Shown here: positions 32,870 through 45,959 of the stretch, piece after piece | Layout of the letters: the number at the start of each line of letters is the position of its first letter | Numbering within the stretch: the stretch's first letter is position 1 | Virus record (IMG/VR): IMGVR_UViG_3300025121_000006 | Length of the DNA: 45,959 bases | From: a virus | Direction: 5' to 3' (one strand) | Notes under the pieces: model-generated | Told to the model about the DNA's origin: nothing | Databases searched by the model: none | Seen by the model: the letters and a program-made list of their open reading frames with translations, nothing else | Program-made: the position numbers and the translations under genes

Positions 32870-32933
32870 ACGGCGGGTGCGGTTTTTAAGAAACTAATTC
32901 CTTTTTAATTTTGCCGCATCCGCCTGTTTTGAA

Positions 32934-33814: not shown

Positions 33815-33865
33815 ACTGTGAACTAGGGGCTAAAAACTAAGAACTGACAGAGGCAAAGGATTGCA

Positions 33866-34702: not shown

Positions 34703-34759
34703 CCACGGATTTTCACGGATGAAAAATATTAACCACGAAGGACACGAAAGGGCACGAAG
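34699..34759 (+). repeat. junction element: B units + A units x3 ending at an ATG
   Basis: TTAACCACGGATTTTCACGGATG...ATTAACCACGAAGGACACGAAAGGGCACGAAG followed by ATG. Confidence 0.9.
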
Positions 34760-35113
34760 ATGAGAAATGGAAAATCACAAATGTTGCGGCCATGCCCTGT
34801 TGAGTTCGATGATAAAAAAACGCCGTGGTGGGCGGAGCCCAGACGCGATGAACTTATCGGCAGGGTTCGGCTGGCTTTTACGATTATTCACGGGGCGAAT
34901 GCCAAGATTGCGGATGAATTCAAAACCGAGGACCTGCGGGCAATAGGCGGCGACGCGGCGACGGTCAAGACAAACGCTATCGGTAAGATTCGCAATATGG
35001 CCGCGAGGCGGGGGTATCGGCGGATAATAATACACAAAATTTGGATGGAAACAGCCGTGTTAACCGCAGATTTCGCAGATTACGCTGAGTCAAGAAAGGC
35101 AGGTAAAAAATGA
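34760..35113 (+). CDS. hypothetical protein
   Basis: 117 aa. The ATG directly follows an A-type element, and the C-terminus is encoded by a C-type element. Confidence 0.45.
35049..35089 (+). repeat. AACAGCC + C units, in frame at the 3' end of a CDS
   Basis: AAACAGCCGTGTTAACCGCAGATTTCGCAGATTACGCTGAG. Confidence 0.9.
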
Positions 35114-35400
35114 GTTGGGGCGAACGAAGTTGTAAAACACCATGCAGGGTGGAAAAATGCACGTTTGAGACCTGCAATGTGGATTGCCCGGAATATCAGT
35201 GGGATGGCAATACGGAGCCGGATAGTAAACCATCGCCAAAGGTAACGGAAAAGCAATTTTATAAATCCAAGTACAAAGATACGAGATTTGTGCCGGCGTT
35301 AAAATCTCGAAGGATCGGCAGAAACGATTTGTGTCCCTGCGGTTCGGGGAGGAAATACAAAAAGTGTCACGGGGATTTTCAATCAGCGAAATCTGCGTAA
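35110..35400 (+). CDS. SEC-C motif (zinc-binding) protein
   Basis: The C-terminal '[14 protein letters not shown]' is the SecA-type SEC-C metal-binding motif. An ATGA overlap joins it to the upstream gene. Confidence 0.6.
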
Positions 35401-35413
35401 TCAGCGTTTAAGG
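35381..35413 (-). repeat. junction element: C units, reverse
   Basis: AATCAGCGAAATCTGCGTAATCAGCGTTTAAGG. It contains the stop of the upstream gene. Confidence 0.9.
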
Positions 35414-35420
35414 AAAAATT

Positions 35421-35675
35421 ATGGAAATCTTGGGTTTGGTTTCGGGATGTTTTGCGGTTGCCGGTGTGGTGTTGAATAACCGGCTAAACAGGGCATGTTT
35501 TATCCTCTGGCTGCTAAGTAACGCCGCAAGCGGCGTCATTCACGTAGAGACAGGCGTTTGGTCGCTTGCTCTGCGGGATGCGGTGTTTTTTGTGCTGGCG
35601 GCGGAAGGATGGTTTCTATGGTCGAAAAGAAATATTAACCACAAAGGGCACGAAGGGACACAAGAAGGATGGTAA
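35421..35675 (+). CDS. small 3-TM membrane protein (PnuC-like?)
   Basis: 84 aa with three hydrophobic segments and a 'GWFLWSKR' end, resembling short phage PnuC-like proteins. The similarity is weak. Confidence 0.35.
   Translation: MEILGLVSGCFAVAGVVLNNRLNRACFILWLLSNAASGVIHVETGVWSLALRDAVFFVLAAEGWFLWSKRNINHKGHEGTQEGW
35634..35668 (+). repeat. junction element: A units x3 ending at an ATG
   Basis: ATTAACCACAAAGGGCACGAAGGGACACAAGAAGG followed by ATG. Confidence 0.85.
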
Positions 35676-35998
35676 TTTTGATTATTGCGGTGTTGTTTGC
35701 TTTTGGCGAGACTGCGTATTTCGGCTTTAATCCGCATCCGGCAAGTTTCGCCGAATGGGTGTGCGATATGATAGCTTTATTTCTGGGTTTTTTGGGGGTA
35801 TGCCGCATCGGTTACAGCAGAGGCCAAGATGCCGCGAAAAAAGAATATGAAGCAAAAATAGAAAACAACCGTGCCACAGAGGTCACAGAGGAAAAGTTGG
35901 CTGATTTGCTTTGGAAAACTTGTTCATTTAGGCCGGATATAAACTGTATGGTGGATGAAGATTGTACAGATTGTCTGCATAATCCAGAAATCGTTTAG
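35669..35998 (+). CDS. membrane protein with Cys-rich C-terminus
   Basis: 109 aa with two TM segments. A degenerate A-type element is translated in frame (ENNRATEVTEEK) between the two halves. Confidence 0.45.
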   Translation: MVILIIAVLFAFGETAYFGFNPHPASFAEWVCDMIALFLGFLGVCRIGYSRGQDAAKKEYEAKIENNRATEVTEEKLADLLWKTCSFRPDINCMVDEDCTDCLHNPEIV

Positions 35999-36005
35999 GT
36001 GAATT

Positions 36006-36902
36006 ATGAAAAAGCGTGGCAGAAAACAGTTCGGGTTTTATCAGGACGAGAAGGCGGTTATCGAGATAGTCAAACTCAAGAGCCGCAGGCGCCGGGATGG
36101 CAAAACTCCGTCGTACCGCCAGATAGCAAGCGAACTAAACGCCGAGGGTCATAAGACGCAGTCGGGCAGGCAGTTCGCCGCGCAGACGGTCAAGAATATA
36201 ATTTTAGCGATAGCAGGCGGTCAGGCTGTCAAGAGGAAAAAACAGGTCAGGAAAACAAGTCTGGGCACATGCGATTATCTGACCCGAAAGCAGTTAAGGC
36301 TTGTATGCGGGGTTTGCCGTGATCAGCGGGATGAGATAATCGTGGCTATGCTGGTCGGGGCGGGCCTTCGGGCGAGCGAGGCGTGCGCACTGGAGATTCG
36401 GGATTTGGGTATTTTCGGGGGTAAAAGCCAGATCGATGTCAGGAGGGGCAAAGGGTCAAAGCAGCGGGTGATTTTCATCAGTCCTGAACTGGCGGAAAAG
36501 CTGCGGGTCTGGGTCAGGGCTTACCGCAATGACGCCGGGGCGAAGGGTAAGGTTTTGGTTACGGAGGACTGGACGGATATGAATTACGATACGCTTTATA
36601 AGCGGGTAAAAAAAATAGGGATACTTGCCGCAATGAGCTGGCTGCATCCGCATTGCCTGCGGCACACATTCGCTACGCTTTTATACGATAACAGAAAAGA
36701 CGTTTTTTTCGTTAAAGAGCAGCTCGGACACGCCAGTATCGCGACAACGGAGATTTACGCTAAGACGTTGACAAAGGATAAGTTAGAGCAGATGAAAAGT
36801 TTCGGCAGGGAGTTTGACGGCCTGTTTTCCGGCCAGACGATTACAGAGACTATAAGAGAAAAGAGAATAAAAGACATAAACGATGAAAATAAAGGAAGTT
36901 AA
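36006..36902 (+). CDS. second tyrosine recombinase with N-terminal HTH
   Basis: 'HCLRHTFATLLYDN...LGHASIATTEIYAK' is a catalytic signature. The N-terminal 'SYRQIASELNAEGHKTQSGRQFAAQTVKNI' is an HTH-like segment. Confidence 0.8.
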   Translation: MKKRGRKQFGFYQDEKAVIEIVKLKSRRRRDGKTPSYRQIASELNAEGHKTQSGRQFAAQTVKNIILAIAGGQAVKRKKQVRKTSLGTCDYLTRKQLRLVCGVCRDQRDEIIVAMLVGAGLRASEACALEIRDLGIFGGKSQIDVRRGKGSKQRVIFISPELAEKLRVWVRAYRNDAGAKGKVLVTEDWTDMNYDTLYKRVKKIGILAAMSWLHPHCLRHTFATLLYDNRKDVFFVKEQLGHASIATTEIYAKTLTKDKLEQMKSFGREFDGLFSGQTITETIREKRIKDINDENKGS

Positions 36903-36978
36903 ATCGGGATTGGATAGTTTTATGATTTACATAGTTTCTTCAGTAAAAAGTGACACAGTGACAAGGAAGTGACAAATT

Positions 36979-37746
36979 ATGGCTAAGGATGGCAATAAAA
37001 CTGGGACCAAAGAATGGGCGGAAACGACGGTGAACTGCGTGGTTGGGTGCAGCCACGACTGCCGGTACTGCTACGCGAGGGAGATGGCCGAGCGGTACGG
37101 CAGGGTAAGGAGGGGTTTATGGCAGTTCGAGAAGCCGGATTTTGTGAGGGTACACCGCAAATACGGGAAAAAGAAGGGTAGGATAATGTTCCCTTCTGCC
37201 CACGATATAACGCCCGCCGTTTTGCCGCATTGCCTTGTTGTTCTGGAAAGTATGCTCAAGGCGGGTAATGACGTGCTGATAGTAAGCAAACCGCATACCG
37301 AATGTATCACGGCGATTTGCTGGATGTTTGAGGAGTTCAAGGAAAAAATTGAATTTAGATTTACGATAGGTTCGGCGGATAACGATATCCTTCGATTCTG
37401 GGAGCCTGGGGCGCCGGATTTTGCCGAGAGGCTTAGCTGCCTCAAGCACGCATTCGATAACGGATTTAAGACAAGCGTATCCTGCGAGCCGTATCTGGAC
37501 GCTTATGTGGTTTATACATATTCCGCGTGCCTGCCGTATCTGACCGAGTCGTTTTGGGTGGGGAAGTTGCGGGATTTTAAGCGGAGGGTTGATACAAGCG
37601 GTTTGACGCAGGCCGAACTCGAACAGTTTGATTTGCCCCTGCAGGCGGTGCAGTCGGATTACATAGTGCGAAGTATCTATGGCCTATTGGATGGCCAGAG
37701 GTTTATCAAGTGGAAGGACAGTTTTCGCAAGGTCATTGGGATATGA
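36979..37746 (+). CDS. radical SAM protein (SplB/DNA-photolyase-like family)
   Basis: 'VGCSHDCRYCYAR' contains the canonical CxxxCxxC cluster motif in the context typical of the COG1533-type family. Confidence 0.6.
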   Translation: MAKDGNKTGTKEWAETTVNCVVGCSHDCRYCYAREMAERYGRVRRGLWQFEKPDFVRVHRKYGKKKGRIMFPSAHDITPAVLPHCLVVLESMLKAGNDVLIVSKPHTECITAICWMFEEFKEKIEFRFTIGSADNDILRFWEPGAPDFAERLSCLKHAFDNGFKTSVSCEPYLDAYVVYTYSACLPYLTESFWVGKLRDFKRRVDTSGLTQAELEQFDLPLQAVQSDYIVRSIYGLLDGQRFIKWKDSFRKVIGI

Positions 37747-38111
37747 GTGTATCGTTTAATAAACTGGCAGAGGAGTTTCTGGATGGCAAAGGCGCAGCCG
37801 ATATCTGCCTGGAGTATCATGTAACGTACTACCGGTTTCGCCATGAAACGGTTAGGCGGATAGGCATTGACAGGTGGAAGGTGTTGTCGGCAAAAAACAA
37901 GGACGATGGCAGAAAAACCGGCGGCAGGAAACAGGCCGAGCCGACAATTGAACAGACGGAAGACGCAAAATGCGCGGGGTTTGAATCTTATACCGAGTGC
38001 CAGATATGCGGTAATGAGGACAAAAAGAAATTTGATAAATTCGGCAGGTGTCTTTGCTGCATGACGGGCGGGTATGTTGTCGAAACGAAAAGGCCGGTAA
38101 TTTTGCGGTGA
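37743..38111 (+). CDS. HTH plus zinc-ribbon protein
   Basis: An ATGA overlap joins it to the radical SAM gene. The C-terminus is 'CQICGNEDKKKFDKFGRCLCC'. Confidence 0.45.
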   Translation: MSVSFNKLAEEFLDGKGAADICLEYHVTYYRFRHETVRRIGIDRWKVLSAKNKDDGRKTGGRKQAEPTIEQTEDAKCAGFESYTECQICGNEDKKKFDKFGRCLCCMTGGYVVETKRPVILR

Positions 38112-38368
38112 GAACGCTGATATTCATCTTGGTTGTTTGGTTAACGGCGTCGAGTTTCGGGGCGTATCAGTGGATACGCATTGAAAGAGCGGTTGCAGAT
38201 AAAGTATTGCGGGGCAGGCGGGTTGAAATAACTTTAGAAACGTTTTCGGCCAAAGGCAATTGGTTGCGGGAAAAGACAACTGACGGGGTTCTGTTAGGTG
38301 ACTTGAATAATGACGGGACCGTAAACTTTGTTGATTTCGCTATTTATCAAAAGGATTACAAAAAATGA
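38108..38368 (+). CDS. signal-anchored protein with dockerin-like motif
   Basis: GTGA overlap start. It carries the TM segment 'LIFILVVWLTASSFG' and the motif 'LGDLNNDGTVNFVDFAIY'. Confidence 0.4.
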   Translation: MRTLIFILVVWLTASSFGAYQWIRIERAVADKVLRGRRVEITLETFSAKGNWLREKTTDGVLLGDLNNDGTVNFVDFAIYQKDYKK

Positions 38369-38625
38369 AAAAATGGATTCCGGTAATTTGGTTAATGGCG
38401 TTTGTCGGAGGTTGCACGAATACAGATGTTCGGACGGATGGCTGGAGTCTGCAGATGAGCCGGCTTTTAACCGATACGGAGTTCGATAAGGCCAGCGTGC
38501 GAATCGAGCCAAACGATGTGGTGACAATAACTTTTGAGAAGTTCAAAAGCGAAGGGCAGCAGATGGCGGAAATACTGGAAAAGGTAATTCCTGCCGCCGC
38601 AGTGGGGGCAGGAATGGCACAATGA
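38365..38625 (+). CDS. lipoprotein
   Basis: 'MKKWIPVIWLMAFVGGC' is a signal peptide plus lipobox. The start overlaps the upstream stop as ATGA. Confidence 0.5.
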   Translation: MKKWIPVIWLMAFVGGCTNTDVRTDGWSLQMSRLLTDTEFDKASVRIEPNDVVTITFEKFKSEGQQMAEILEKVIPAAAVGAGMAQ

Positions 38626-38786
38626 AGAAAGGTGGGGAAAAAATTTGCGGGCATTGCAGGTATTACAATGAAAACCCTGACGAAATTAAAAACGGCTGGT
38701 GCAATCACCCAAACCAGGTCGCAGATAAAGAATGTAATTATTATCAAAGCTGTAATTTATTCAGCAAAGAAAGGAGTCTTGAATGA
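38622..38786 (+). CDS. small Cys-rich protein (54 aa)
   Basis: ATGA overlaps at both ends and a CxxC...C...C pattern. It is below the ORF-track cutoff. Confidence 0.4.
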   Translation: MKKGGEKICGHCRYYNENPDEIKNGWCNHPNQVADKECNYYQSCNLFSKERSLE

Positions 38787-39514
38787 AGTTTTCAGCAATC
38801 AGGTTTAATGACAGGGATGTTGTTTTGTTTCGGGGAAAAGGGCTTATAAGCGCGGCGATAATAATATTCTGCTCGCTGTTTAAGGGCAGGCTGCTGCGGG
38901 ACTGGATTACTAAAAAGAAGCGGTATTCGCATATCGGGCGAATAGTGATAATGACGCAGGAACTGGTAAACCTGATGAGGCAGAAGATAGGAATCGGGCT
39001 GGAAACAATTCAGCATTTTCAGGATAACGTGGGAAAGCCGTTTCTTTTGGAGAGTACTACGATGGACGTGGGGCTTGAGACATTTAACGGCGTGAGGCTG
39101 GTTCTGATGGCCGATATTGTAGAGTATTACAGGGGCCTGATTGTGTGGCGTGCGTTTAAGATATTCAGGGACGGGGTCTGGAACGGCGATTCCAAGTATA
39201 TCAAAGGATTGACCGAGCAGGAGAGGCGGGCGTATTATCAGTTTATCTTCGATACGTACCATAAGCCTTATGAACAACATGGTTTTGAACTTGCGGGCAT
39301 GGGTACGCCCTGGCAGACAGGCAAAAATAACAATAGCGATTTCGCGTGCTCGGAGCACAGCGCCCGATTCGATATCAGTATGGGTCTGCTGAAACGCAAG
39401 GCCAACGAGTTCAGCCCGCAAAATTACGCAATGGGCGACGCGGTGGATTGGGAACTGGCAATGCACGATTTTACCTGCTGCCTTGGGCGTGAAATCGAGA
39501 TAGAAAAAGGGTGA
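38783..39514 (+). CDS. permuted papain-fold (YiiX/NlpC-P60-like) peptidase candidate
   Basis: 'DVVLFRGKGLISAAI...YSHIGRIV...LLESTT..GV' followed by 'FACSEHSARF' fits the His-then-Cys order of YiiX-like amidases. Confidence 0.4.
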   Translation: MKFSAIRFNDRDVVLFRGKGLISAAIIIFCSLFKGRLLRDWITKKKRYSHIGRIVIMTQELVNLMRQKIGIGLETIQHFQDNVGKPFLLESTTMDVGLETFNGVRLVLMADIVEYYRGLIVWRAFKIFRDGVWNGDSKYIKGLTEQERRAYYQFIFDTYHKPYEQHGFELAGMGTPWQTGKNNNSDFACSEHSARFDISMGLLKRKANEFSPQNYAMGDAVDWELAMHDFTCCLGREIEIEKG

Positions 39515-39521
39515 ATTGCAA

Positions 39522-39698
39522 ATGCGGGTTCTGCGGGAATGCAAGGCTGCTTTACGTGAACTGCCATTAACTAAATTCGACGACAAAACGGAAGAACTTA
39601 TCAATCACGCGATAATATACCTTGATATGGTTATCAGGGATCGTGAAAAGACAGTAGAGGCGATAAGAGAGGCGCAGAGGGCAGAGTTGGAAGGCTAA
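39522..39698 (+). CDS. small hypothetical protein
   Basis: 58 aa from the ATG. A TTG at 39516 is an alternative start. Confidence 0.4.
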   Translation: MRVLRECKAALRELPLTKFDDKTEELINHAIIYLDMVIRDREKTVEAIREAQRAELEG

Positions 39699-39710
39699 CG
39701 AGGCTGTAAG

Positions 39711-40100
39711 ATGGGAATGGATGTAAAACGGAAAACTGAAAAAGTTAAATGTTACCCAGGGGAGAAGATGAGCGAAGTAACGGAAAGTTTCTATTGTCGC
39801 AATTGCGGCAAGGAATTGTCACGATCGCAAGTTGTTTCGGGTATTTTGCCGGATTGTGAAAGTGAAGATTATAATAAGAAACGGACGGCGGGCATGGACG
39901 CCGAAAACAACAAGCAACCAGTAACCAGTAACCGGCAACCAGTCTGCGGGTTCTGCGAATCGGGGCCGGTCGAAAAGGACGGGCTTTGCAAAGGCTGCTA
40001 TAACGTGTGGGCAGAGCATCAGCACATGATTAAGAACCTGCTGGATATGCAAAAGATAGTGAAGAATAGCAGGAATAGGATAAGTGAACAGCCGGTGTAA
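39711..40100 (+). CDS. zinc-finger-like Cys-rich protein
   Basis: 'CRNCGKE' and 'CGFCESGPVEKDGLCKGC'. It contains an in-frame AACCAGT heptamer run, and the stop lies inside a junction element. Confidence 0.45.
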   Translation: MGMDVKRKTEKVKCYPGEKMSEVTESFYCRNCGKELSRSQVVSGILPDCESEDYNKKRTAGMDAENNKQPVTSNRQPVCGFCESGPVEKDGLCKGCYNVWAEHQHMIKNLLDMQKIVKNSRNRISEQPV

Positions 40101-40131
40101 CCGCGGATTTCGCAGATTACACGGAGTTAAG
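40086..40131 (+). repeat. junction element: AACAGCC + B/C hybrid units
   Basis: GAACAGCCGGTGTAACCGCGGATTTCGCAGATTACACGGAGTTAAG. Confidence 0.9.
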
Positions 40132-40140
40132 AAAGAGAAA

Positions 40141-41043
40141 ATGGATTTACCTGTAAATAAAATTATCTGCGGGGATTGCAAAACCATCCTGCAGGCGGTC
40201 CCTGATAATCTGGTGGATTTAGTTTTCTGTTCGCCGCCATACGAGGATGCAAGGACGTATGGTATTGATTTTAAGTTAACAGAGCAGAAATGGGTAGATT
40301 GGGCTGTCGAGAGATTTATAGAGTGCGTTAGAGTATGCAAAGGTGTTGTTTGTTGGGTGGTCGAAGGTAAAACAAGGGACTTTCGATGGTCGGCAACACC
40401 GGTATTATTGATGGCGGATTTACATAGAGCAGGAATACATTTGCGAAAACCGCCGATTTACAAACGATACGGAATTCCCGGCAGTGGCGGGCAAGAGTGG
40501 CTGCGTAATGATTATGAATTTATTGTTTGTGCAAGTCGTGGCAAATTGCCGTGGAGTGACAATACAGCAATGGGGCATCCGCCAAAATACGAAATGGGCG
40601 GCCGGTGCAGCAATAGAACAGCAGATGGGCGAAGGGCAAATGAACAGAGATACGCAGCGTTAGACGCCATGCGATTAACACCAAGTGAAACCAGCAGGCG
40701 AAACGGCGCAAAAGGTAACGGCGGTTATGCGAAACCAAAGATAGCAAATCCGGGCAATATAATTGATTGTGGAGCTGCTGGCGGCGGGAGAATGGGAAGT
40801 AAACTGGCCAGTGAGAACGAAGCACCTTTTCCGGAAGCACTTGTCGAATTTTTTGTTAGGTCTTTCTGTCCTGCATGCGGAATCGTACTCGATCCATTTT
40901 GTGGTTCAGGAACAACAGTAAGCGTCGCAAAACAGTGGGGAAGAAATTTTATCGGAATTGACATTAGGCAATCACAGGTCGATTTATCCTGCATGCGAAT
41001 AAGGGAAATAAAGGAACAGTATGGTTTGTTTGAATCTGCGTAA
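40141..41043 (+). CDS. beta-class DNA methyltransferase (N4-cytosine or N6-adenine)
   Basis: 'VDLVFCSPPYEDA' (motif IV, SPPY) lies N-terminal to 'VLDPFCGSGTTVSVA' (motif I). This permuted order defines beta-class amino-MTases. Confidence 0.8.
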   Translation: MDLPVNKIICGDCKTILQAVPDNLVDLVFCSPPYEDARTYGIDFKLTEQKWVDWAVERFIECVRVCKGVVCWVVEGKTRDFRWSATPVLLMADLHRAGIHLRKPPIYKRYGIPGSGGQEWLRNDYEFIVCASRGKLPWSDNTAMGHPPKYEMGGRCSNRTADGRRANEQRYAALDAMRLTPSETSRRNGAKGNGGYAKPKIANPGNIIDCGAAGGGRMGSKLASENEAPFPEALVEFFVRSFCPACGIVLDPFCGSGTTVSVAKQWGRNFIGIDIRQSQVDLSCMRIREIKEQYGLFESA

Positions 41044-41055
41044 TCAGCGGGTAAG
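41032..41055 (-). repeat. junction element: C units, reverse (short)
   Basis: GAATCTGCGTAATCAGCGGGTAAG. It contains the MTase stop codon. Confidence 0.8.
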
Positions 41056-41059
41056 AAGA

Positions 41060-41075
41060 CTTTTGTTAACAATTG
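41060..41075. promoter_or_regulatory. palindromic box CTTTTGTTAACAATTG, copy 2 (upstream of terS)
   Basis: 16 nt identical to 1616-1631. Confidence 0.5.
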
Positions 41076-41125
41076 CTGGTTTTTCGCTTGCGGTTGTTGA
41101 ACCAATAGTAGGAAGATAAGGCTTT

Positions 41126-41713
41126 ATGGCTAAAAGAGCAAAAAAACAATCAAAAACAGAAAGGGCAAAAAAATGCACAACGTCTAAACCCCGTAAAAGG
41201 TCTGCCTCCGCTTCTGTGCGTAATACCGGCAGCGGGGGCAGGCCTGATCTGTTCGAGTCGCAGTTCTGTGAGAGGGCGAAAAGGTACTGCTCGAGGTACA
41301 AGGCCGACTGGGGGGATTTGGCCAAAGAGTTCAAGGTTTCAGAGCGGACGATTTTCGCATGGATGGCAAAGTACCCAAAATTCAAAAAGGCAATCGAGGA
41401 GGGCAGGGCGCTTGCCGCAGGGCCGATTGAACTGAATCTTCGCCAGCTTGCTATGCCGCATGACGAAGTTCAGGAAGAGCATGAGCTGCGGGGTAAGGGG
41501 AAAAATAAAAAGCTGGTGGTGGTCAAAAGGAAAATAAAAAAAGGGTGTGTCGATGTGACGGCGGCGATCAAGGTACTGGCGGCCGACGACCCAAAGAGGT
41601 TCGGAAACAAGGTCAGTATCGGCGGCGACGAAGGGATGGACCCTTTGAGGATGCTGATAACCGAGATACGCCAGCAGCCGACGGTTCTGCCGCAGGATGA
41701 AAAGAAAGTTTAA
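41126..41713 (+). CDS. terS: terminase small subunit
   Basis: 'GGRPDLFESQFCERAKRYC...LAKEFKVSERTIFAWMAKYPKFKKAIEEG' is the usual TerS HTH pattern. It lies directly upstream of TerL. Confidence 0.7.
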   Translation: MAKRAKKQSKTERAKKCTTSKPRKRSASASVRNTGSGGRPDLFESQFCERAKRYCSRYKADWGDLAKEFKVSERTIFAWMAKYPKFKKAIEEGRALAAGPIELNLRQLAMPHDEVQEEHELRGKGKNKKLVVVKRKIKKGCVDVTAAIKVLAADDPKRFGNKVSIGGDEGMDPLRMLITEIRQQPTVLPQDEKKV

Positions 41714-41730
41714 CCACGAAGGACACGAAG
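41709..41730 (+). repeat. minimal junction element (A units) forming a complete 17-nt intercistronic spacer
   Basis: TTTAACCACGAAGGACACGAAG. Its TAA is the TerS stop, and the next ATG follows immediately. Confidence 0.95.
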
Positions 41731-41949
41731 ATGAAAGTAAATCAAATCAGCGTAACTTATGGAGAATTGCGAAGTACAGGGTATCCGGCGTTCAGCAACA
41801 AACGACACGAGGTGACAATCGGGGCTGTACTGTCCGATACTGATTCGCCGCAACTGGTCTATGAAAAATTACATGACAGGGCAAAGCATTTAGTAAAAAC
41901 GGCGTTTGGTGACAAGGATATAGAGGGGCAGCAGGAAATGCCGTTTTAA
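41731..41949 (+). CDS. hypothetical protein
   Basis: 72 aa. The ATG directly follows TTAACCACGAAGGACACGAAG, and the stop lies inside a C-type element. Confidence 0.5.
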   Translation: MKVNQISVTYGELRSTGYPAFSNKRHEVTIGAVLSDTDSPQLVYEKLHDRAKHLVKTAFGDKDIEGQQEMPF

Positions 41950-41972
41950 TCAGCGGAATCAGCGTTAAAAGG
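41947..41972 (-). repeat. junction element: C units, reverse
   Basis: TAATCAGCGGAATCAGCGTTAAAAGG. Confidence 0.85.
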
Positions 41973-41977
41973 ATTTT

Positions 41978-43513
41978 ATGACCGAGCGGGAATTTACAGA
42001 CAATATGAAGAACAGGTTATGGCGGCTAAATAACCTGTATATGGTCATGGACGACCAGGGCAATAAGGTGCGTTTCAGACTGAACGCCGTGCAGCATATC
42101 CTGTATAAGGCTCTGTGGTGGCTAAACGTGGTCTTAAAGAGCCGCCAGCACGGGATAACTACCTTTGTCTGTATATTCTTTCTTGACGCATGCCTGTTCA
42201 ACGAGAACGTCCGCGCCGGTATTATCGCCCACAAGTTAAAGGACGCGCAGAAGATATTCCGCGATAAGATAAAATTCGCTTACGACAACCTGCCCGCGTC
42301 GCTTAAAAAACAGTGCGTTCCGGTCAAGGACGATGCGCTGGAGCTGTTATTCGAGCATAACAGCGGCATCTACGTCGGGACCAGTATGAGGTCCGGCACT
42401 CTTCAATACCTGCACATTTCCGAATACGGATGGCTTTGCGCCCATACGCCGCAGAAGGCAAAGGAAATAAAATCAGGCGCTATGGAAACGGTTCATCAGG
42501 GCGGTATTATTATCGTCGAATCGACCGCCGAGGGCGTTGGTAACGACTTTCAAAAGCTGTGTACGACCGCCCAGAATAATAGCGGTAAAGAACTATCGAG
42601 GATGGATTACAGGTTCCATTTCTTCCCCTGGTACAAAAAGCTGGAAAACCAGTTGTTTGAGGCGGTAGCTATAAGCGAGGATTTGCAGAAGTATTTCGCC
42701 CGGATAGAAAACGAGACCGGCGACAGGATAGCGGATTCCTATCGTGCTTGGTATTCGAAGAAAAAGATTACGCTTGGCAGCGATACCTATAAGGAGCATC
42801 CATCGACCGCCGAAGAGGCGTTTTTAGCCAGTATCGAGGGCAGCTATTACGGGGCAAGGATGATACAGGCCGAGGAAGAGGGCCGCGTTACGATGGTCCA
42901 GCCGGTAGCTTACGCCAAGGTCTATTCGTTTTGGGATATCGGCGATATCCATACCAGTATCTGGTTTTGCCAGTTCATTAAAAATCAGATCCGATGCGTC
43001 GATTACTACGAGGATAACGCAGGGCTGGGACTGCCCGAATACGGCAGGGTATTGCAGGCCAAGCCCTATATCTACGGCGACCATTTCGCGCCGCCCGATA
43101 TAGGCGGCAGTAACCGAAAAAGCTTCCAGACGGGTAAGACTACGCTGGATATCGCGGCGGAGGCGGGGATACACTTTAAGGTTATCGAACCGCACAGGAT
43201 AGAGGATAGGATTGCCGCGGTAAGGGATGTTGTCTTAAATCAATGCTGGTTCGATAAGATACGCTGCGAGTTTGGCATTAAGTGCCTTAAAAACTACCGA
43301 AAGGAAAAAGACGAGCTTGCCAGCAGCGAGGATATCACGGTTTATAAGAATAGGCCATATCACGACGGGTTCAGCCACGGGGCGGACGCGTTCGGGTATA
43401 TGGCGATGGCGTTTATGTACGAGATGATCGGCGGGTCAAGACTGGGCGCGACAAGGCCGCAGTCGATACACGAGGATGCGCCGGAGCCGGAATACGACTT
43501 GTTGGGACTATAG
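41978..43513 (+). CDS. terL: terminase large subunit
   Basis: 511 aa. It has the ATPase segment 'VVLKSRQHGITTF', then 'IIIVESTAEG', and a C-terminal nuclease-like half with 'DIGD' and 'HGADAFGY'. Confidence 0.8.
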   Translation: MTEREFTDNMKNRLWRLNNLYMVMDDQGNKVRFRLNAVQHILYKALWWLNVVLKSRQHGITTFVCIFFLDACLFNENVRAGIIAHKLKDAQKIFRDKIKFAYDNLPASLKKQCVPVKDDALELLFEHNSGIYVGTSMRSGTLQYLHISEYGWLCAHTPQKAKEIKSGAMETVHQGGIIIVESTAEGVGNDFQKLCTTAQNNSGKELSRMDYRFHFFPWYKKLENQLFEAVAISEDLQKYFARIENETGDRIADSYRAWYSKKKITLGSDTYKEHPSTAEEAFLASIEGSYYGARMIQAEEEGRVTMVQPVAYAKVYSFWDIGDIHTSIWFCQFIKNQIRCVDYYEDNAGLGLPEYGRVLQAKPYIYGDHFAPPDIGGSNRKSFQTGKTTLDIAAEAGIHFKVIEPHRIEDRIAAVRDVVLNQCWFDKIRCEFGIKCLKNYRKEKDELASSEDITVYKNRPYHDGFSHGADAFGYMAMAFMYEMIGGSRLGATRPQSIHEDAPEPEYDLLGL

Positions 43514-43572
43514 GCTGTGGGCTTTGGGCTTTGGGTACTAAAGTCTATAGCCTAAAGGCCAGGGACTAAATT
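43513..43572 (+). repeat. heptamer run (GGGCTTT / ..CTA family)
   Basis: GGCTGTGGGCTTTGGGCTTTGGGTACTAAAGTCTATAGCCTAAAGGCCAGGGACTAAATT. Confidence 0.7.
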
Positions 43573-43761
43573 ATGAAATATATTGTCACATGTCCGAAAT
43601 GCAGAACCGATATCGGGGCGAAGATGCCCGATGGCTCGGTGGATAAGGCGATGTGCGGCAACTGCGGGCTTGTTTTCGATACCTCGCAGGTCAGCGGCCG
43701 GATACTGAAGGAACTGCCCGAGCGGGAGGAAGAGGAAATTGATTTATTGGCGATGGACTGA
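43573..43761 (+). CDS. zinc-ribbon protein
   Basis: The 'CPKC...CGNCG' pair, 62 aa. Confidence 0.5.
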   Translation: MKYIVTCPKCRTDIGAKMPDGSVDKAMCGNCGLVFDTSQVSGRILKELPEREEEEIDLLAMD

Positions 43762-43771
43762 AAAGAAAAAG

Positions 43772-43818
43772 AAACAGCCGTATTAAACGCTGATTTCGCA
43801 GATTACGCAGATTAAAGG
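43772..43818 (+). repeat. junction element: AACAGCC + C units
   Basis: AAACAGCCGTATTAAACGCTGATTTCGCAGATTACGCAGATTAAAGG. Confidence 0.9.
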
Positions 43819-44072
43819 AAAGTTAAAAATGAACAAAAGGCTTGAAAAGGATATTATCGGTGAAGTGTAGTAGCCGTAAATTTTATATGGAGAATGCGTA
43901 TGTTGTAAAGAACATACGAGAAAGTTCACTGGACTTTTTGGCGAATAGTTGCCCCATTGAGGCGGCCAGCCTACAGAACACGGACTTCTTGTGCGTTCCC
44001 GTTTTGAAATTTGTCGGTTTTGTAGTTAATGCCCTGCCGTAAGAGGTGGGGCAGAACTACCGAAAGTCAAGG

Positions 44073-44399
44073 ATGGCGAAAACAAAAAAACAATTCAACC
44101 GTGAGTATTACCTAAAATATCGGGATAGCATTTTGGCCACTCGAAAGTTAGACAGGGCAATAAACGGCCAGAAACAATACAGAACGGACAAGAAATATAA
44201 TTATGGAAATAGGTATAATACAAGGTATTACGCCAGCCGTGAGCGGTATAGACAATCGGAAAAATGCCGAGCGGCTACGGTAAAACGATTACAGCGTTGG
44301 ATAGACACTCACCCAGAAGCATCGGAAAAGACGCTGGAAAAAATGGAATACTATATCAGGGTAAACGAAAGAACCGTGTCGCTGGCAAGTGTTGAATAA
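44073..44399 (+). CDS. K/R/Y-rich hypothetical protein in an AT-rich island
   Basis: 108 aa from the ATG at 44073 (SD-like AAGGA). The ORF track begins at GTG 44046. Confidence 0.4.
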   Translation: MAKTKKQFNREYYLKYRDSILATRKLDRAINGQKQYRTDKKYNYGNRYNTRYYASRERYRQSEKCRAATVKRLQRWIDTHPEASEKTLEKMEYYIRVNERTVSLASVE

Positions 44400-44465
44400 A
44401 TCAGCGAAATCTGCGTAATCAGCGTTAAAAATGGATTTGAAATTTGAAATTTAATAGTTGAAAGG
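44399..44465. repeat. C units (reverse) + TTTGAAA heptamers
   Basis: AATCAGCGAAATCTGCGTAATCAGCGTTAAAA is identical to 1307-1338. It is followed by GGATTTGAAATTTGAAATTTAAT. Confidence 0.9.
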
Positions 44466-44474
44466 AAAAAAAGA

Positions 44475-44984
44475 ATGGCAAAGAACCAGAAGTCAGACAT
44501 TAGTAATCAGAAACCAGAGGATATCGGCACAGGTCAAGGTCCTGATACCGATGAACAACCGGTAGTGAACGAAAACGCGGCGGCGGATCTGGCAGCCGAG
44601 AACGCAGAGCTAAAAAAGAAGCTGGCGAAGGCTACGGCTGAAAAAGGGATACCGTCGGTCAATAAGACAGTGCAGGGCGAACAGCCCAGGATGGAGGAGA
44701 TTATGGGTAAGCAGTTCGCGCATGCGAAAATCAAAAAGACATCGGAGCTGACCAAAGAGGATATCGTCTCCATCGAACGCGAGATCCGACGGTATGTCAA
44801 AAGGGGCGGCATTGTCGCCGGTAAAGAGGTTAAAGGCGGTTACGTCAAGGGCCTGACCGCAGAGAAGAAGGCCAACGCCGATAGACTGCTGAAACTTATC
44901 GGCAGGGTCGATGACAAGGGCAATCCTATTGCAAAATGGGATGAATCTATCGACGTGCCGGGTATGAGCAACGCGCTGAAATAG
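44475..44984 (+). CDS. hypothetical protein
   Basis: 169 aa, SD AAAGGAAAAA, with an acidic N-terminus and a basic C-terminus. Confidence 0.5.
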   Translation: MAKNQKSDISNQKPEDIGTGQGPDTDEQPVVNENAAADLAAENAELKKKLAKATAEKGIPSVNKTVQGEQPRMEEIMGKQFAHAKIKKTSELTKEDIVSIEREIRRYVKRGGIVAGKEVKGGYVKGLTAEKKANADRLLKLIGRVDDKGNPIAKWDESIDVPGMSNALK

Positions 44985-45013
44985 GGAATAGGTTGTAGGC
45001 GATGGGCTTTAGT

Positions 45014-45084
45014 ACTTCGTGGAACTTCGTGTTCTTCGTGGTTAAAAATGGATTTGAAATTTGAAATTTAAAATTTGAAAAGGG
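45014..45084. repeat. A units (reverse) + TTTGAAA heptamers
   Basis: ACTTCGTGGAACTTCGTGTTCTTCGTGGTTAAAA, then GGATTTGAAATTTGAAATTTAAAATTTGAAAAGGG. Confidence 0.9.
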
Positions 45085-45091
45085 TAAAATT

Positions 45092-45616
45092 ATGGATGAA
45101 TGTAATGGTCAGGGAAATTGTGTGGCGGTTATGGAAAAGTACATCGGCACGAAGATTGTCAAAGCCAGACCGATGAATCTCGGCGACTACCACCAGTATC
45201 GCGGTTGGGTAATACCAGCGAACGAGAATCCTGCAATAGAAGGATTTTTGGTTGCGTATGAGGATGGTTACGAATGGTGGAGTCCAAAAGAGGCGTTTGT
45301 TGCTTATAGGAAAACCAGCGGTATGAATTTTGGCCTTGCTATTGAGGCGTTGAAGAAGGGTTGCAAAGTTGCCCGCGCCGGCTGGAACGGCAAGAATATG
45401 TGGTTGGTTTATATGTCCGGTATGACACTGCCGCCGTTCAACACTCAAGGCACAGACCGCAAAGTCAATGACCGAACGGCGAAGTGGATTGGCGAAGATA
45501 CACCACTTGAAACTTTGCCGTATATTGCGATGTGGACTGCGGATAAAAAGTGGCTTCCTGGGTGGCTGGCATCACAAACGGATATGCTGGTCGATGACTG
45601 GATGATTGTCGAATAA
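45092..45616 (+). CDS. DUF2829 (Tad2-family) domain protein with N-terminal extension
   Basis: 'MNFGLAIEALKKGCKVARAGWNGKNMWLVYM....PYIAMWTADKKWLPGWLASQTDMLVDDWMIVE' matches the DUF2829 pattern as I remember it. Confidence 0.65.
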   Translation: MDECNGQGNCVAVMEKYIGTKIVKARPMNLGDYHQYRGWVIPANENPAIEGFLVAYEDGYEWWSPKEAFVAYRKTSGMNFGLAIEALKKGCKVARAGWNGKNMWLVYMSGMTLPPFNTQGTDRKVNDRTAKWIGEDTPLETLPYIAMWTADKKWLPGWLASQTDMLVDDWMIVE

Positions 45617-45640
45617 AAGCCCTCGCGGCGATTGAGCGAA
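45617..45640 (+). promoter_or_regulatory. conserved leader box, copy 4
   Basis: AAGCCCTCGCGGCGATTGAGCGAA, ending 4 nt before the ATG at 45645. Confidence 0.55.
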
Positions 45641-45644
45641 TATT

Positions 45645-45959
45645 ATGAAATGGTATGAAAAAGATGAAACGCAGTTTACGCCGCCCGATTTTATCGACCG
45701 GCGGCATGCGTATCTGCAATGCTTCTATGGCGGTGACGAAGGGCGGGCTGTTCTATGCGACCTTCGCCGCCGAGTTGCTGAAAAAACCGTGGGTACGCCC
45801 GAAGAGGCGGTCGCGAAGCTATTGCTCTTGGACTTTATTGACAGCATACCGAGGATAGCCGGCGCGGTCGATGCGATGGCGCTGGTTAAGGCAGAGGGGG
45901 TTATAGCGTTCGCATACGAAGAGCCGCAGCAAGAAGACAAGGAAACGGATTTATTGGAC
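45645..45959 (+). CDS. hypothetical protein, N-terminal part (continues at 2..139 across the junction; 108 aa in total)
   Basis: 105 codons with no stop before the window end. It is preceded by a copy of the AAGCC..CGCGGCG..TGAGCG leader box. Confidence 0.6.
   Translation, partial: MKWYEKDETQFTPPDFIDRRHAYLQCFYGGDEGRAVLCDLRRRVAEKTVGTPEEAVAKLLLLDFIDSIPRIAGAVDAMALVKAEGVIAFAYEEPQQEDKETDLLD
45833..45959. repeat. terminal direct repeat, copy 2 (identical to 1-127)
   Basis: Base-by-base identity of 127 nt. The length is typical of a k=127 assembly overlap. Confidence 0.95.

What the first reader, a model, noticed from the sequence alone, without database searches (positions are those of the whole stretch)
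41709..41733. Junction elements physically supply stop codons, SD-like motifs and start contexts
The TAA inside TTAAC is the actual stop codon of the ORFs ending at 139, 8272, 15360, 17138, 34702 and 41713. GTAACC does the same at 40100.

The TAA inside reverse C units (CTGCGTAATCAGCG) is the stop for the ORFs ending at 1307, 35400, 41043 and 41949.

In six cases the ATG follows the last A unit with no extra base: 1134, 14776, 32966, 34760, 35669 and 41731. This places GAAGGA 7 nt upstream of the ATG, which is ideal SD spacing.

At 41709-41730 a single 22-nt element contains the complete TerS-to-next-gene intercistronic region. The element therefore behaves as a portable 'stop + RBS + start' connector.
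Basis: seen in the sequence. Interest (0 to 1): 0.7.

Follow-up and report, generated by a model that had tools for sequence, protein, structure and literature searches.

The report
Capped nonamer repeats joining phage genes
Short capped arrays of 9-base repeats fill most gene junctions of this phage and really do carry stop codons, ribosome-binding sites and start contexts, and the same 21-base arm also occurs in bacteria of many phyla, so it looks like a spreading cassette end that the phage also uses as a translation signal.

Summary
The sequence facts hold. At 41709-41730 the TerS stop (TAA in TTAAC), two CACGAAG units and the ATG of a conserved 72-aa gene are contiguous. All other listed coordinates check out.

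The phase is far beyond chance. The stop lies inside the element at 11 of 27 junction arrays (0.8 expected). The ATG abuts an A array at 4 of 12 (0.2 expected).

Homologues confirm ATG 41731 and stop 41949. GAAGGA plus 7 nt matches this phage's usual Shine-Dalgarno strength and spacing, and the connector is unstructured.

The elements are not phage-specific translation devices. The window holds 44 arrays with a TTAAC/GTTAA cap and 2-4 nonamers (families A, B, C) at 30 of 53 junctions. The exact 21-mer A arm occurs in more than 120 loci from many bacterial phyla and in 13 unrelated viral contigs. There it is usually one arm of an inverted pair at gene 3' ends, sometimes enclosing small accessory genes. 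Eighty TerL relatives have none.

The 72-aa gene with its arms is an insertion between TerS and TerL, flanked by TTAA. Removing it restores a normal junction.

Best reading: these are ends of MITE-like cassettes inserted at TTAA, and the sense arms double as stop, RBS and start. The mobilising mechanism is unknown.

The parts
41126..41713 (+). TerS gene. Its stop TAA (41711-41713) lies inside the TTAAC cap.
   Evidence: phrog_309 terminase small subunit, E 1.4e-16; stop checked.
41710..41730 (+). Focal A arm, TTAAC + CACGAAGGA + CACGAAG. It is the entire TerS/orf72 spacer and carries the stop, the GAAGGA SD and the start context.
41731..41949 (+). orf72, a conserved 72-aa gene inserted between TerS and TerL.
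   Evidence: Four homologues at 47-63% identity share its N- and C-termini. It is absent from 80 TerL relatives, where TerS abuts TerL.
41948..41968 (-). Reversed C arm AATCAGCGG AATCAGCG TTAA. TAA 41947-49 is the orf72 stop. TTAA 41965-68 precedes AAGGATTTT ATG of TerL.
41978..43513 (+). TerL gene.
   Evidence: phrog_2 and related families.
136..156 (+). A arm. TAA 137-139 is the stop of ORF 45645..139.
169..200 (+). B-like arm (CACAGATTA units).
1113..1133 (+). A arm abutting ATG 1134. The ORF is unverified.
1306..1335 (-). Reversed C arm. TAA 1305-07 closes ORF 1134-1307.
2885..2915 (+). A arm with 3 units, 13 nt after the stop within TAAACAGCCGTTTAAC.
5934..6004 (.). B+ arm plus reversed C arm, forming an imperfect hairpin.
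   Evidence: -30 kcal/mol, z -6.0.
6682..6721 (+). B arm with 4 units.
6772..6792 (+). C+ arm lying inside the 5' end of ORF 6751-7443.
8269..8299 (+). A arm. TAA 8270-72 is the stop of ORF 7457-8272.
8328..8358 (-). Reversed C arm. With 8269-8299 it forms a 90-nt TTAA-flanked element whose arms are not complementary.
9425..9455 (-). Reversed A arm, read in frame inside the ORF that starts at ATG 9389.
12024..12039 (+). C+ units.
13772..13792 (+). Degenerate A arm.
13802..13886 (.). B+ arm plus reversed C arm, a hairpin flanked by TTAA on both sides.
   Evidence: -27.9 kcal/mol, z -6.3.
14439..14468 (+). C+ arm inside ORF 14253-14789.
14755..14785 (+). A arm containing ATG 14776, the start of a T7 gp14-like ORF.
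15357..15387 (+). A arm. TAA 15358-60 is the stop of ORF 14776-15360.
15405..15429 (+). C+ arm.
17135..17166 (+). A arm. TAA 17136-38 is the stop of ORF 15477-17138. ATG 17177 lies 10 nt downstream.
23615..23644 (+). A arm in the 5' region of the tail-fibre ORF.
25692..25722 (+). A arm read in frame directly after ATG 25688.
26165..26212 (+). A arm followed by a B arm.
29004..29034 (+). A arm with a GGAAC cap, inside the 5' end of ORF 28998-29372.
29329..29359 (-). Reversed C arm, followed by GTTAAGGAGG and ATG 29373.
30085..30124 (.). A-like units followed by a reversed C arm.
30569..30640 (.). C+ arm plus reversed A arm. The arms are not complementary and do not fold.
32935..32965 (+). A arm with a TTAGC cap, abutting ATG 32966 (dcm-like gene).
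34699..34720 (+). B arm. TAA 34700-02 is the stop of ORF 33866-34702.
34729..34759 (+). A arm abutting ATG 34760. The database's gene calls start this ORF at the second ATG, 34781.
35060..35080 (+). B/C+ units inside ORF 34760-35113.
35381..35411 (-). Reversed C arm. TAA 35398-400 is the stop of ORF 35110-35400.
35635..35665 (+). Degenerate A arm. ATG 35669 lies 3 nt after it.
40097..40117 (+). B arm with a GTAAC cap. TAA 40098-100 is the stop of ORF 39711-40100.
41033..41054 (-). Reversed C arm. TAA 41041-43 is the stop of the methylase ORF.
43783..43812 (+). C+ arm, the left end of a TTAA-flanked 638-nt segment that holds two small ORFs.
44399..44428 (-). Reversed C arm, complementary to the arm at 43783. 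The stop at 44397-99 abuts it.
45015..45045 (-). Reversed A arm.

Best explanation
The 'junction elements' are arms of a widespread, MITE-like repeat family that has not been described.

Anatomy. An arm is a 5-nt cap (TTAAC at a left end, GTTAA at a right end) followed by 2-4 tandem units of about 9 nt with a conserved 7-nt core. Family A is CACGAAG-NN. Families B and C are CGC[G/T/A]GATT-N. A typical arm is 30-31 nt.

Outside the phage. In cellular genomes the arms mostly occur as inverted pairs at the 3' ends of genes. They are either empty (a hairpin) or enclose a small accessory gene.

In this temperate podovirus. Forty-four arms sit on 30 of 53 gene junctions.

Inferred mechanism. Arm-bounded segments insert at TTAA, which in these genomes is typically the T+TAA stop of one gene lying just before the A-rich SD of the next. 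This leaves the upstream stop inside the left cap. It leaves a second TTAA in front of the downstream SD.

Why sense arms persist. In a densely packed polycistronic phage genome only sense-oriented arms survive. They are purine-rich and unstructured, they carry GAAGGA, and they lack stops in two frames. A terminating ribosome can therefore re-initiate 17 nt downstream.

At 41709-41730. The arm acts as the stop + SD + start context for a cargo gene (orf72) that was inserted between TerS and TerL.

Shown: the anatomy, the phase statistics, the genuine start and stop, the typical SD strength, the lack of structure, the cross-phylum distribution and the insertion status of orf72.

Inferred: TTAA-targeted mobility, translational re-initiation and selection on orientation.
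For: Coordinates and stops/starts were verified.

Phase: the stop lies in the element at 11 of 27 arrays against 0.78 expected, the ATG abuts at 4 of 12 against 0.2 expected, and A orientation is 17:3 and B 10:0.

Census: 44 arrays on 30 of 53 junctions.

Distribution:
- The exact 21-mer occurs in 13 IMG/VR contigs with GC 45-64%.
About 0.5 matches are expected by chance in 596 Gb, by my own calculation.
- The organisms include Acidobacteriota, Verrucomicrobiota, Chloroflexi (among them the complete Herpetosiphon aurantiacus genome), Bacteroidota, Planctomycetota, Spirochaetota, Desulfobacterota and Gammaproteobacteria.

Cellular arrangement:
- 56 of 122 arms have an inverted partner within 150 nt, and 13 more within 1.5 kb.
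- The enclosed genes include GxxExxY/PDDEXK_3 genes, one of them between gcvPA and gcvPB, and a PIN toxin-antitoxin pair.
- The elements favour gene 3' ends: 16 sit between convergent genes and 4 between divergent genes.

Not inherited with the phage lineage: no arm in 1 Mb of 80 TerL relatives.

orf72:
- Its homologues share the N-terminus MK..V.YGELRSTGYPAFSNKR and the C-terminus ..PF*, and lack arrays.
- Relatives have TerS abutting TerL and no orf72.
- The insert 41714-41964 is flanked by TTAA on both sides. Deleting it gives ...GTTTAAAAGGATTTTATG, a normal stop/SD/start.
- Five other arm-bounded segments reconstruct to a sensible TTAA(TAAA)+A-rich+AGG+ATG junction in the same way.

Translation signals: the SD duplex is -5.9 kcal/mol with a 7-nt spacer, equal to the phage norm. 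The connector is unstructured. Promoter-like and terminator-like hits are no more than chance in 40-46 kb, which fits a polycistronic unit.
Against: - No transposase or other recurrent gene lies next to the arms.
- TTAA is palindromic, so a target-site duplication cannot be told apart from the tip of an inverted repeat, and no empty allele was observed.
- In the phage most arms are solo, or are paired with a non-complementary arm (A+ with C-, C+ with A-), and these pairs do not fold.
- In cellular hairpins the 7-nt cores are conserved on both arms but the 2-nt spacers are not complementary. This looks like recognition of the units by a factor rather than simple maintenance of an inverted repeat.
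- Identity of 21 of 21 nt across phyla implies strong sequence-specific constraint that a passive transposon end does not obviously need.
- Exact copies are low-copy in the cellular genomes seen (1-2 per genome).
- Several arms are read through in frame at the 5' ends of ORFs.
- The host, and hence its anti-SD sequence, is unknown.
- Translation was not measured.
Confidence: 0.45

Rival explanations
1. RNA-level cis-regulatory arrays. The units are binding sites on the mRNA for a widely conserved or co-transferred RNA-binding factor, such as S1, a Csp or a CsrA-like protein. This factor would tune translation initiation or re-initiation at junctions. Mobility would be secondary or absent.
For: - A and B arms show a strong sense-strand bias.
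- Within arms the core heptamer is conserved and the spacers are free.
- In three-unit A arms the first and third units carry GGA/GGG, 18-19 nt apart.
- The arms are unstructured.
- The SD is of normal strength.
- A published analogue exists: TAACTGA and TTTTGAA heptamer arrays just upstream of start codons, for which a binding protein and a translational role were proposed (PMC4679880; bioRxiv 10.1101/2022.06.06.494920).
- The phage contig L013 mixes A arms with (TCAGTTA)n arrays.
Against: - In cellular genomes single arms are not clearly oriented with the genes (15 against 11), and half of all arms are inverted pairs at gene 3' ends, not near starts.
- C arms occur in both orientations in the phage (7:11).
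- No candidate factor was identified.
- The idea does not explain the TTAAC/GTTAA caps or the bracketing of inserted genes.
Confidence: 0.2
2. Recombination linkers. The conserved arms are short shared homologies at gene boundaries. They let phages and other mobile DNA swap genes by homologous or microhomology recombination, as in the 'linker' version of the modular theory. No transposase is involved.
For: - Arms sit exactly at gene boundaries and bracket an inserted gene.
- Hybrid A+/C- and C+/A- combinations are what exchange between different elements would produce.
- Identical 21-31-nt arms occur in unrelated phages.
- No transposase lies nearby.
Against: - No mosaic pair with breakpoints at arms was found. 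All related contigs were either identical or too distant.
- Homologues of orf72 travel without arms.
- The idea does not explain the hairpin form or the cap.
Confidence: 0.15
3. DNA operators. The tandem units are binding sites for a DNA-binding regulator. Examples are ribbon-helix-helix proteins, which bind heptad or nonamer arrays in either orientation, and a stoperator-type repressor that blocks transcription through the junctions of this temperate phage.
For: - The architecture is one of tandem units with a conserved core, in direct and inverted arrangements.
- The sites are dispersed across the genome of a phage that has an integrase module.
- From memory: the omega repressor binds heptad arrays, and L5 has stoperators.
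Against: - Identical arms in many phyla and in unrelated phages argue against a phage-specific repressor.
- At least three unit families, plus many heptamer families, in one genome would need several regulators.
- The exact register with stops and starts would be left unexplained.
Confidence: 0.08
4. Integron-type attC sites or RNase III processing hairpins. On this view the inverted arms fold in ssDNA or RNA and are recombined by a tyrosine recombinase or cut by RNase III.
For: - The caps give AAC ... GTT at the outer ends, as in the R''/R' boxes of attC.
- The phage encodes two Xer-like tyrosine recombinases.
- The B+/C- pairs at 5934-6004 and 13802-13886 fold strongly.
- The cargo genes (TA modules, small ORFs) resemble cassette genes.
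Against: - Both recombinases score far below the integron-integrase cut-offs.
- ORFs lie between the arms rather than upstream of a complete site.
- Most phage arms have no complementary partner.
- The spacers of cellular hairpins do not covary.
- Single hairpins occur per locus, not cassette arrays.
Confidence: 0.05
5. Chance or neutral slippage. The repeats are low-complexity intergenic filler, and their overlap with stops and starts is a coincidence.
For: - Heptamer and nonamer tandem arrays of many sequences fill the intergenic regions.
- Slippage is known to favour 5-11-nt units (reviewed in PMC4679880).
Against: - Phase P values are about 1e-11 and 3e-5.
- The same 21-mer occurs in more than 130 unrelated loci where about 0.5 would be expected by chance.
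Confidence: 0.02

Closest known systems
Start-associated sequences (SAS/ESAS) of Cluster K mycobacteriophages (Pope et al. 2011, PMC3203893)
   Same: - A short asymmetric repeat dispersed through a phage genome, almost always in one orientation.
- It lies a few bases upstream of start codons and contains an SD core.
- It sometimes contains the stop codon of the upstream gene.
- About half of the copies are accompanied by an imperfect inverted repeat.
- Its function is unproven, and translation initiation has been proposed.
   Different: - SAS is a single 13-bp motif (GGGATAGGAGCCC), not a capped tandem array.
- SAS is confined to one phage cluster and is absent from host genomes. The arms here are absent from the phage's relatives but present in many bacterial phyla and in unrelated phages.
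Intergenic short tandem direct repeats: TAACTGA in Beggiatoaceae, Cyanobacteria and Bacteroidetes (MacGregor 2015, PMC4679880); TTTTGAA heptamers in Nostoc 7120 (bioRxiv 10.1101/2022.06.06.494920); cyanobacterial STRR (from memory)
   Same: - 2-6 tandem copies of a 7-9-nt unit in intergenic DNA, often ending within a few bases of a start codon.
- The same unit is shared by distant phyla with no known transfer mechanism.
- The function is unknown.
- The window also has ATTTGAA, AAAATCA and GTTTAGG heptamer arrays.
- Contig L013 carries (TCAGTTA)n beside A arms.
   Different: - The units here are nonamers with a 7-nt core and 2 free bases.
- The arrays carry a TTAAC/GTTAA cap and occur as inverted pairs that bracket genes.
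- None of the A, B or C strings was found in the searchable literature.
Bacterial MITEs and REP-like elements that supply expression signals, such as the Neisseria Correia elements (reviews PMC10969869, PMC2229807)
   Same: - Small non-coding inverted-repeat elements in intergenic DNA, preferentially at gene ends.
- A short AT-rich target sequence is found at both ends.
- They can donate promoters, terminators and processing sites, and can be co-transcribed.
   Different: - No cognate transposase or RAYT was found.
- The arms are built of tandem nonamers.
- The elements are cross-phylum rather than species-specific.
- In the phage the arms are mostly solo or hybrid.
Integron attC sites
   Same: - Imperfect palindromes placed directly after a cassette ORF, with AAC ... 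GTT at the outer ends.
- From memory: the stop codon often lies within the site.
- The cargo is small accessory or TA genes.
   Different: - There is no integron integrase and there are no cassette arrays.
- ORFs lie between the arms.
- There is no extrahelical-base architecture.
- The arms are repeat arrays.
Ordinary translational coupling (stop-start proximity with an SD in the upstream gene or spacer)
   Same: - A 17-nt spacer, an SD 7 nt upstream of the ATG, and no secondary structure.
   Different: - Here the whole spacer is a copy of a dispersed repeat rather than unique sequence.

Membership tests
Shine-Dalgarno / translational-coupling junction | A purine-rich anti-SD complement lies 5-10 nt upstream of the start. 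| tested here: met
   GAAGGA with a 7-nt spacer gives a duplex of -5.9 kcal/mol with ACCUCCUUU, equal to the phage's gene mean of -6.1; random positions give -3.7. This is met literally at 1134, 14776 and 41731 only.
Shine-Dalgarno / translational-coupling junction | The downstream ATG is a genuine start. | tested here: met
   For 41731, four homologues begin at the aligned Met. It was not established for 1134, which has no homologue, or for 34760, where the gene caller prefers 34781.
Shine-Dalgarno / translational-coupling junction | Complementarity to the host's 16S 3' end, and measured initiation. | not testable with these tools
   The host is unknown and no expression data are available.
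MITE | Terminal inverted repeats. | tested here: inconclusive
   Met in cellular copies: 56 of 122 arms have a reverse arm within 150 nt. In the window only the B+/C- and C+/C- pairs are complementary. Most arms are solo or hybrid.
MITE | Target-site duplication. | tested here: inconclusive
   TTAA lies on both sides of six arm-bounded segments, and five of these six reconstructed empty sites give a sensible stop/SD/start junction. However, TTAA is palindromic and no empty allele was seen.
MITE | A related autonomous element or transposase. | tested here: not met
   No recurrent neighbouring gene family was found in 133 loci. None is recognisable in the window.
REP / REPIN | Species-specific 20-40-nt palindromes with an associated RAYT. 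| tested here: not met
   The identical arm occurs across phyla, and no RAYT-like neighbour was found.
Integron attC | A cognate integron integrase and arrays of ORF-attC cassettes. | tested here: not met
   The two recombinases score 77 and 45 bits against a cut-off of 265 for integrase_gron. ORFs lie between the arms, and single elements occur per cellular locus.
Integron attC | R''/L''-L'/R' folding with extrahelical bases. | not testable with these tools
   No attC model is available. The outer AAC/GTT is present, but the arms are unit arrays with non-complementary spacers.
SAS/ESAS (Cluster K mycobacteriophages) | The 13-bp motif GGGATAGGAGCCC, restricted to the phage cluster and absent from hosts. 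| tested here: not met
   The sequence is different. The arms are absent from 80 relatives and present in cellular genomes.
Intergenic short tandem direct repeats (LSSR / STRR / TAACTGA type) | At least 2 tandem copies of a 5-11-nt unit, intergenic, often next to starts, with the unit shared by distant taxa. | tested here: met
   The defining papers give no function (PMC4679880).
Rfam RNA families | A match at the gathering threshold. | tested here: not met
   No family matched in the window or in seven cellular loci that carry hairpins.

The most novel reading that the evidence does not exclude
The capped nonamer arms are the ends of a previously unrecognised, cross-phylum class of 'plug-and-play' gene cassettes. 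The left arm brings an unstructured leader with an SD and abuts the cargo start. The right arm overlaps the cargo stop. The TTAA-flanked unit drops into the stop/SD gap of any operon without disturbing its neighbours. Cassettes would be moved between phages and bacteria of different phyla by an unknown TTAA-specific or unit-recognising machinery.
Probability: 0.2. Interest if true: 0.85.

Novelty: new variant of a known kind. Interest (0 to 1): 0.64.

Why it matters
If the arms are cassette ends that carry their own translation signals, they would explain how small accessory genes ('morons') can be inserted between essential, translationally coupled phage genes such as TerS and TerL without polar effects.

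They would also define a repeat family shared by phages and at least eight bacterial phyla. Its spread and its recognition factor are unknown.

The system further gives a concrete, sequence-defined case for the long-standing puzzle of intergenic heptamer and nonamer arrays (STRR, TAACTGA), whose function has never been established.

In practice the 21-31-nt arms are easy markers. They can be used to find inserted genes and to link uncultured phages to hosts that carry the same repeat repertoire, for example Herpetosiphon-like Chloroflexi.

Tried and rejected
- GenBank phages: no close relative by DNA, no A arm, and only two weak B-like hits in faecal phage contigs. Portal relatives are at most 27% identical and give no clue to the host.
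- Rfam and tRNA scans found nothing relevant.
- Literature searches for the repeat strings found nothing relevant. A search for nonamer-repeat terms was also unproductive.
- Other samples: 14 contigs carry the 72-aa gene; the 7 loci retrieved and aligned are 99.8-100% identical to the window, so they hold no array polymorphism.
- Pairs of array-bearing viral contigs were identical, so no mosaic breakpoints could be examined.
- The syntenic relative L002/L273 shares only 33-40% amino-acid identity, and its arrays are not at orthologous junctions.
- Looking for GxxExxY cassettes in IMG/VR gave nothing.
- Neighbour-gene clustering found no transposase.
- Compensatory pairing in the hairpin spacers was tested and not found.
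- Open-frame counts in cellular loci showed no significant frame preference (26, 19 and 16), but that control is weak because no gene calls were available.
- Resemblances to DnaA boxes, boxA, dif/XerD arms, Chi, KOPS, MraZ boxes, the T7 epsilon enhancer and IS5 ends were considered from memory. All were dropped because they were partial and could not be tested.
- Folding of 41610-41850 showed no significant structure.
Full report
**What the window is.** The window is a complete, circularly assembled phage genome of about 45.8 kb; its first 127 nt repeat at the end. The phage is podovirus-like. It has a T7-type tail tube protein, a portal, a gp14-like internal protein, TerS and TerL. It also has two Xer-like tyrosine recombinases, so it is probably temperate. 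Nearly all genes are on the + strand. No close relative exists among GenBank phages. The 7 loci retrieved from other samples are 99.8-100% identical to the window.

**Checking the observation.**
- Every coordinate in the finding is correct. The TAA inside TTAAC closes the ORFs ending at 139, 8272, 15360, 17138, 34702 and 41713. GTAAC does so at 40100. The TAA in TAATCAGCG closes those ending at 1307, 35400, 41043 and 41949, and a further case abuts at 44399.
- The ATG follows the last A unit directly at 1134, 32966, 34760 and 41731. At 14776 it lies within the array, and at 35669 it follows a degenerate unit.
- At 41709-41730 the spacer between the TerS stop and the next ATG is 17 nt, and all of it is element.
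- Caveats: GAAGGA at exactly 7 nt holds for three of the six starts. The 57-aa ORF 1134-1307 has no homologue. The gene caller prefers ATG 34781 over 34760.
- Against random placement of each array within its own junction, the stop lies inside the element in 11 of 27 arrays (0.78 expected, P about 1e-11). The ATG abuts an A array in 4 of 12 (0.20 expected, P about 3e-5).

**Anatomy.**
- The window has 44 arrays, 1.2 kb in total, on 30 of 53 gene junctions.
- Each array is a cap plus 2-4 units of 9 (occasionally 10-11) nt. A arms are TTAAC + CACGAAG-NN. B arms are TTAAC + CGCGGATT-N. C arms are TTAA(A/C) + CGC[T/A]GATT-N.
- C arms often appear reversed, as AATCAGCG-AAATCTGCG-TAATCAGCG-(G)TTAA. 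A full arm is 30-31 nt.
- A and B arms are strongly sense-biased, 17:3 and 10:0.
- Heptamer arrays (ATTTGAA, AAAATCA, GTTTAGG, TTCTTGT and others) usually lie between an arm and the next SD.
- B+ and reversed C arms are nearly complementary. They form long imperfect hairpins at 5934-6004 and 13802-13886 (-30 and -28 kcal/mol, z about -6).
- A+/C- and C+/A- combinations do not fold, and the focal connector is unstructured.

**The focal gene is real and is an insertion.**
- The 72-aa ORF has four homologues at 47-63% identity. Their N-termini (MK..V.YGELRSTGYPAFSNKR) and C-termini (..PF*) align with ATG 41731 and stop 41947-49. Those homologues have ordinary unique junctions with no arrays. The start is therefore genuine, and the stop position predates the element.
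- None of 80 TerL relatives has this gene, and in them TerS abuts or overlaps TerL.
- The segment 41714-41964 (A arm, orf72, reversed C arm) is flanked by TTAA on both sides. Removing it together with one TTAA gives ...AAAGTTTAAAAGGATTTTATG. That is a normal TerS stop, SD and TerL start.
- Five other arm-bounded segments reconstruct in the same way to a sensible TTAA (TAAA in one) + A-rich + AGG + ATG junction.

**Translation signals.** This phage's genes typically use AAGGA or GGAG 5-9 nt upstream of the start. The A arm's GAAGGA with a 7-nt spacer gives -5.9 kcal/mol against a generic anti-SD. That matches the gene mean of -6.1, and random positions give -3.7. Promoter and terminator consensus matches in 40-46 kb are at or below chance, which fits a polycistronic unit where coupling matters.

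**The elements are not phage-specific.**
- The exact 21-mer TTAACCACGAAGG(A/G)CACGAAG occurs in 13 IMG/VR contigs with GC from 45 to 64%.
By my estimate about 0.5 matches would be expected by chance in 596 Gb.
- The organisms include Acidobacteriota, Verrucomicrobiota, Chloroflexi (three Herpetosiphon species, one with a complete genome), Bacteroidota, Planctomycetota, Kiritimatiellia, Lentisphaerae, Spirochaetota, Desulfobacterota and Gammaproteobacteria. GC ranges from 32 to 70%, and housekeeping genes lie next to the elements.
- 56 of 122 arms have a reverse arm within 150 nt, and 13 more have one within 1.5 kb. The enclosed genes include GxxExxY/PDDEXK_3 genes, one of them between gcvPA and gcvPB, and a PIN toxin-antitoxin pair.
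- The elements avoid divergent intergenic regions: 16 lie between convergent genes and 4 between divergent genes. They are therefore features of gene 3' ends.
- B arms are likewise found in 19 viral contigs with GC 38-65%, often as hairpins. Some show the same grammar of stop, nonamer array, heptamer array, ATG.
- One Mb of TerL relatives contains no arm at all, so the arms were not inherited with the phage lineage.
- Nothing matches in Rfam, and the repeat strings do not appear in the searchable literature.

**Limits on 'portable connector'.** The complete stop-A-A-ATG string occurs in only seven stretches of 241 million metagenome records. Only one of them, the distant syntenic relative L002/L273, has a real ORF at that ATG. 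In cellular hairpins the 7-nt cores are conserved on both arms, but the 2-nt spacers are not complementary. This points to unit recognition rather than pairing. No transposase or other recurrent gene accompanies the arms.

**Best explanation.**
- The arms are ends of a MITE-like, cassette-forming repeat family, and they land on TTAA. In these genomes TTAA is typically the T+TAA stop of one gene, lying just before the SD of the next.
- This places stops in left caps and leaves TTAA + AAGGA after right caps. It also accounts for the 3'-end bias in bacteria.
- In a compact polycistronic phage genome sense arms are retained because they are unstructured and carry an SD. They are also stop-free in two frames, and several are read through at ORF 5' ends.
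- The junction therefore works as stop + RBS + start.
- The steps inferred rather than shown are TTAA-targeted mobility, termination followed by re-initiation, and selection on orientation.
- I give this reading about 0.45.
- The main rivals are an RNA-binding-factor array (0.2), recombination linkers (0.15), DNA operators (0.08), attC- or RNase III-type hairpins (0.05) and chance (0.02).

**Comparison with known systems.**
- Functionally the closest phage precedent is the SAS/ESAS of Cluster K mycobacteriophages (PMC3203893). That motif is cluster-specific, not tandem, and absent from hosts.
- As a class, the arrays belong with the unexplained intergenic tandem heptamers of Beggiatoaceae, Cyanobacteria, Bacteroidetes and Nostoc (PMC4679880; bioRxiv 10.1101/2022.06.06.494920). 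One array-rich phage contig even carries (TCAGTTA)n beside A arms.
- The capped nonamer architecture, the inverted pairing around cargo genes and the breadth across phyla are not described in what I could search.

**Verdict.** I class it as a new variant of known kinds (dispersed junction repeats, MITE-like elements and short tandem intergenic repeats). There is a non-negligible chance that it marks a new class of cross-phylum gene cassette.

Noticed in passing
window 34172-34298: 5.2 tandem copies of a 25-nt unit (ACGACAAAAGTGTCGTTACCCCCTC, with an internal palindrome ACGACA..TGTCGT). They lie inside ORF 33866-34702, which has an HTH_36 domain. They look like replication-origin iterons embedded in an initiator gene.
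   Followed up: no
window 9389-9500, 23611-23720, 25688-25760, 6751-6860: Arms and T-rich heptamer arrays (TTCTTGT and similar) are read in frame at the 5' ends of four ORFs. The ORFs include the tail-tube-B-like and tail-fibre-like genes. The result is signal-peptide-like N-termini, for example MKMRNKKLEIKSLRGTSCSSWLKFLFLVSCVLFLAAPAAA. ATG 9389 overlaps the upstream stop as ATGA. It is unclear whether these extensions are translated.
   Followed up: partly
window 1102-1117, 2874-2889, 14425-14443, 15388-15404, 26153-26169, 43770-43787, 29052-29068: A further conserved motif, (T)AAACAGCC(G/A), lies 2-5 nt upstream of many TTAAC/TTAAA caps. In four cases its leading TAA is the stop of the upstream gene. 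Its function is unknown.
   Followed up: partly
L226 670-1260: An unrelated phage contig that carries an orf72 homologue has its own junction repeat, TGACCACCTATTCACGAG, three times. The TGA is the stop of the upstream gene, and an SD and ATG follow shortly after. This is an independent example of stop-containing junction repeats.
   Followed up: no
L013 (IMGVR_UViG_3300035698_022356) 2580-13115: The intergenic regions consist of long heptamer arrays, including (TCAGTTA)n, which is the reverse complement of the TAACTGA repeats described in Beggiatoaceae and Cyanobacteria. AGAAGTT/AGAAGTC and GTGAATA arrays and A arms are present as well.
   Followed up: partly
L048 1640-2010; L061 2840-3300; L022 2846-3330; L058 1166-2160: In bacterial genomes inverted A arms enclose GxxExxY (PD-(D/E)XK-like) genes. 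One is truncated and sits between gcvPA and gcvPB. Another pair of arms encloses a PIN toxin-antitoxin pair. This suggests small selfish modules travel between these arms.
   Followed up: partly
window 27348-28163 (-) and 36006-36902 (+): There are two Xer-like tyrosine recombinases. The first lies in the only minus-strand block, next to a roughly 700-nt region with no called gene (26651-27348), and is probably the integration module.
   Followed up: no
window 45092-45616, 36979-37746, 35421-35675, 32966-33814, 40141-41043: Accessory genes are annotated by precomputed Pfam as a Tad2-like (anti-Thoeris family) protein, a radical SAM protein, an NMN-transporter-like small protein, a cytosine-5 methylase and an N6/N4 methylase. 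This is a counter-defence-rich early region.
   Followed up: no
window 3411-3440 and 5899-5930: Two classic intrinsic terminators (a GC hairpin followed by a T run) follow ORFs 2958-3410 and 3484-5898. The repeat arms are therefore not the phage's terminators.
   Followed up: no
window 39908-39943: AACCAGT heptamer repeats lie inside ORF 39711-40100. They resemble the cyanobacterial STRR units CCCCAGT and CAACAGT, which I recall from memory.
   Followed up: no
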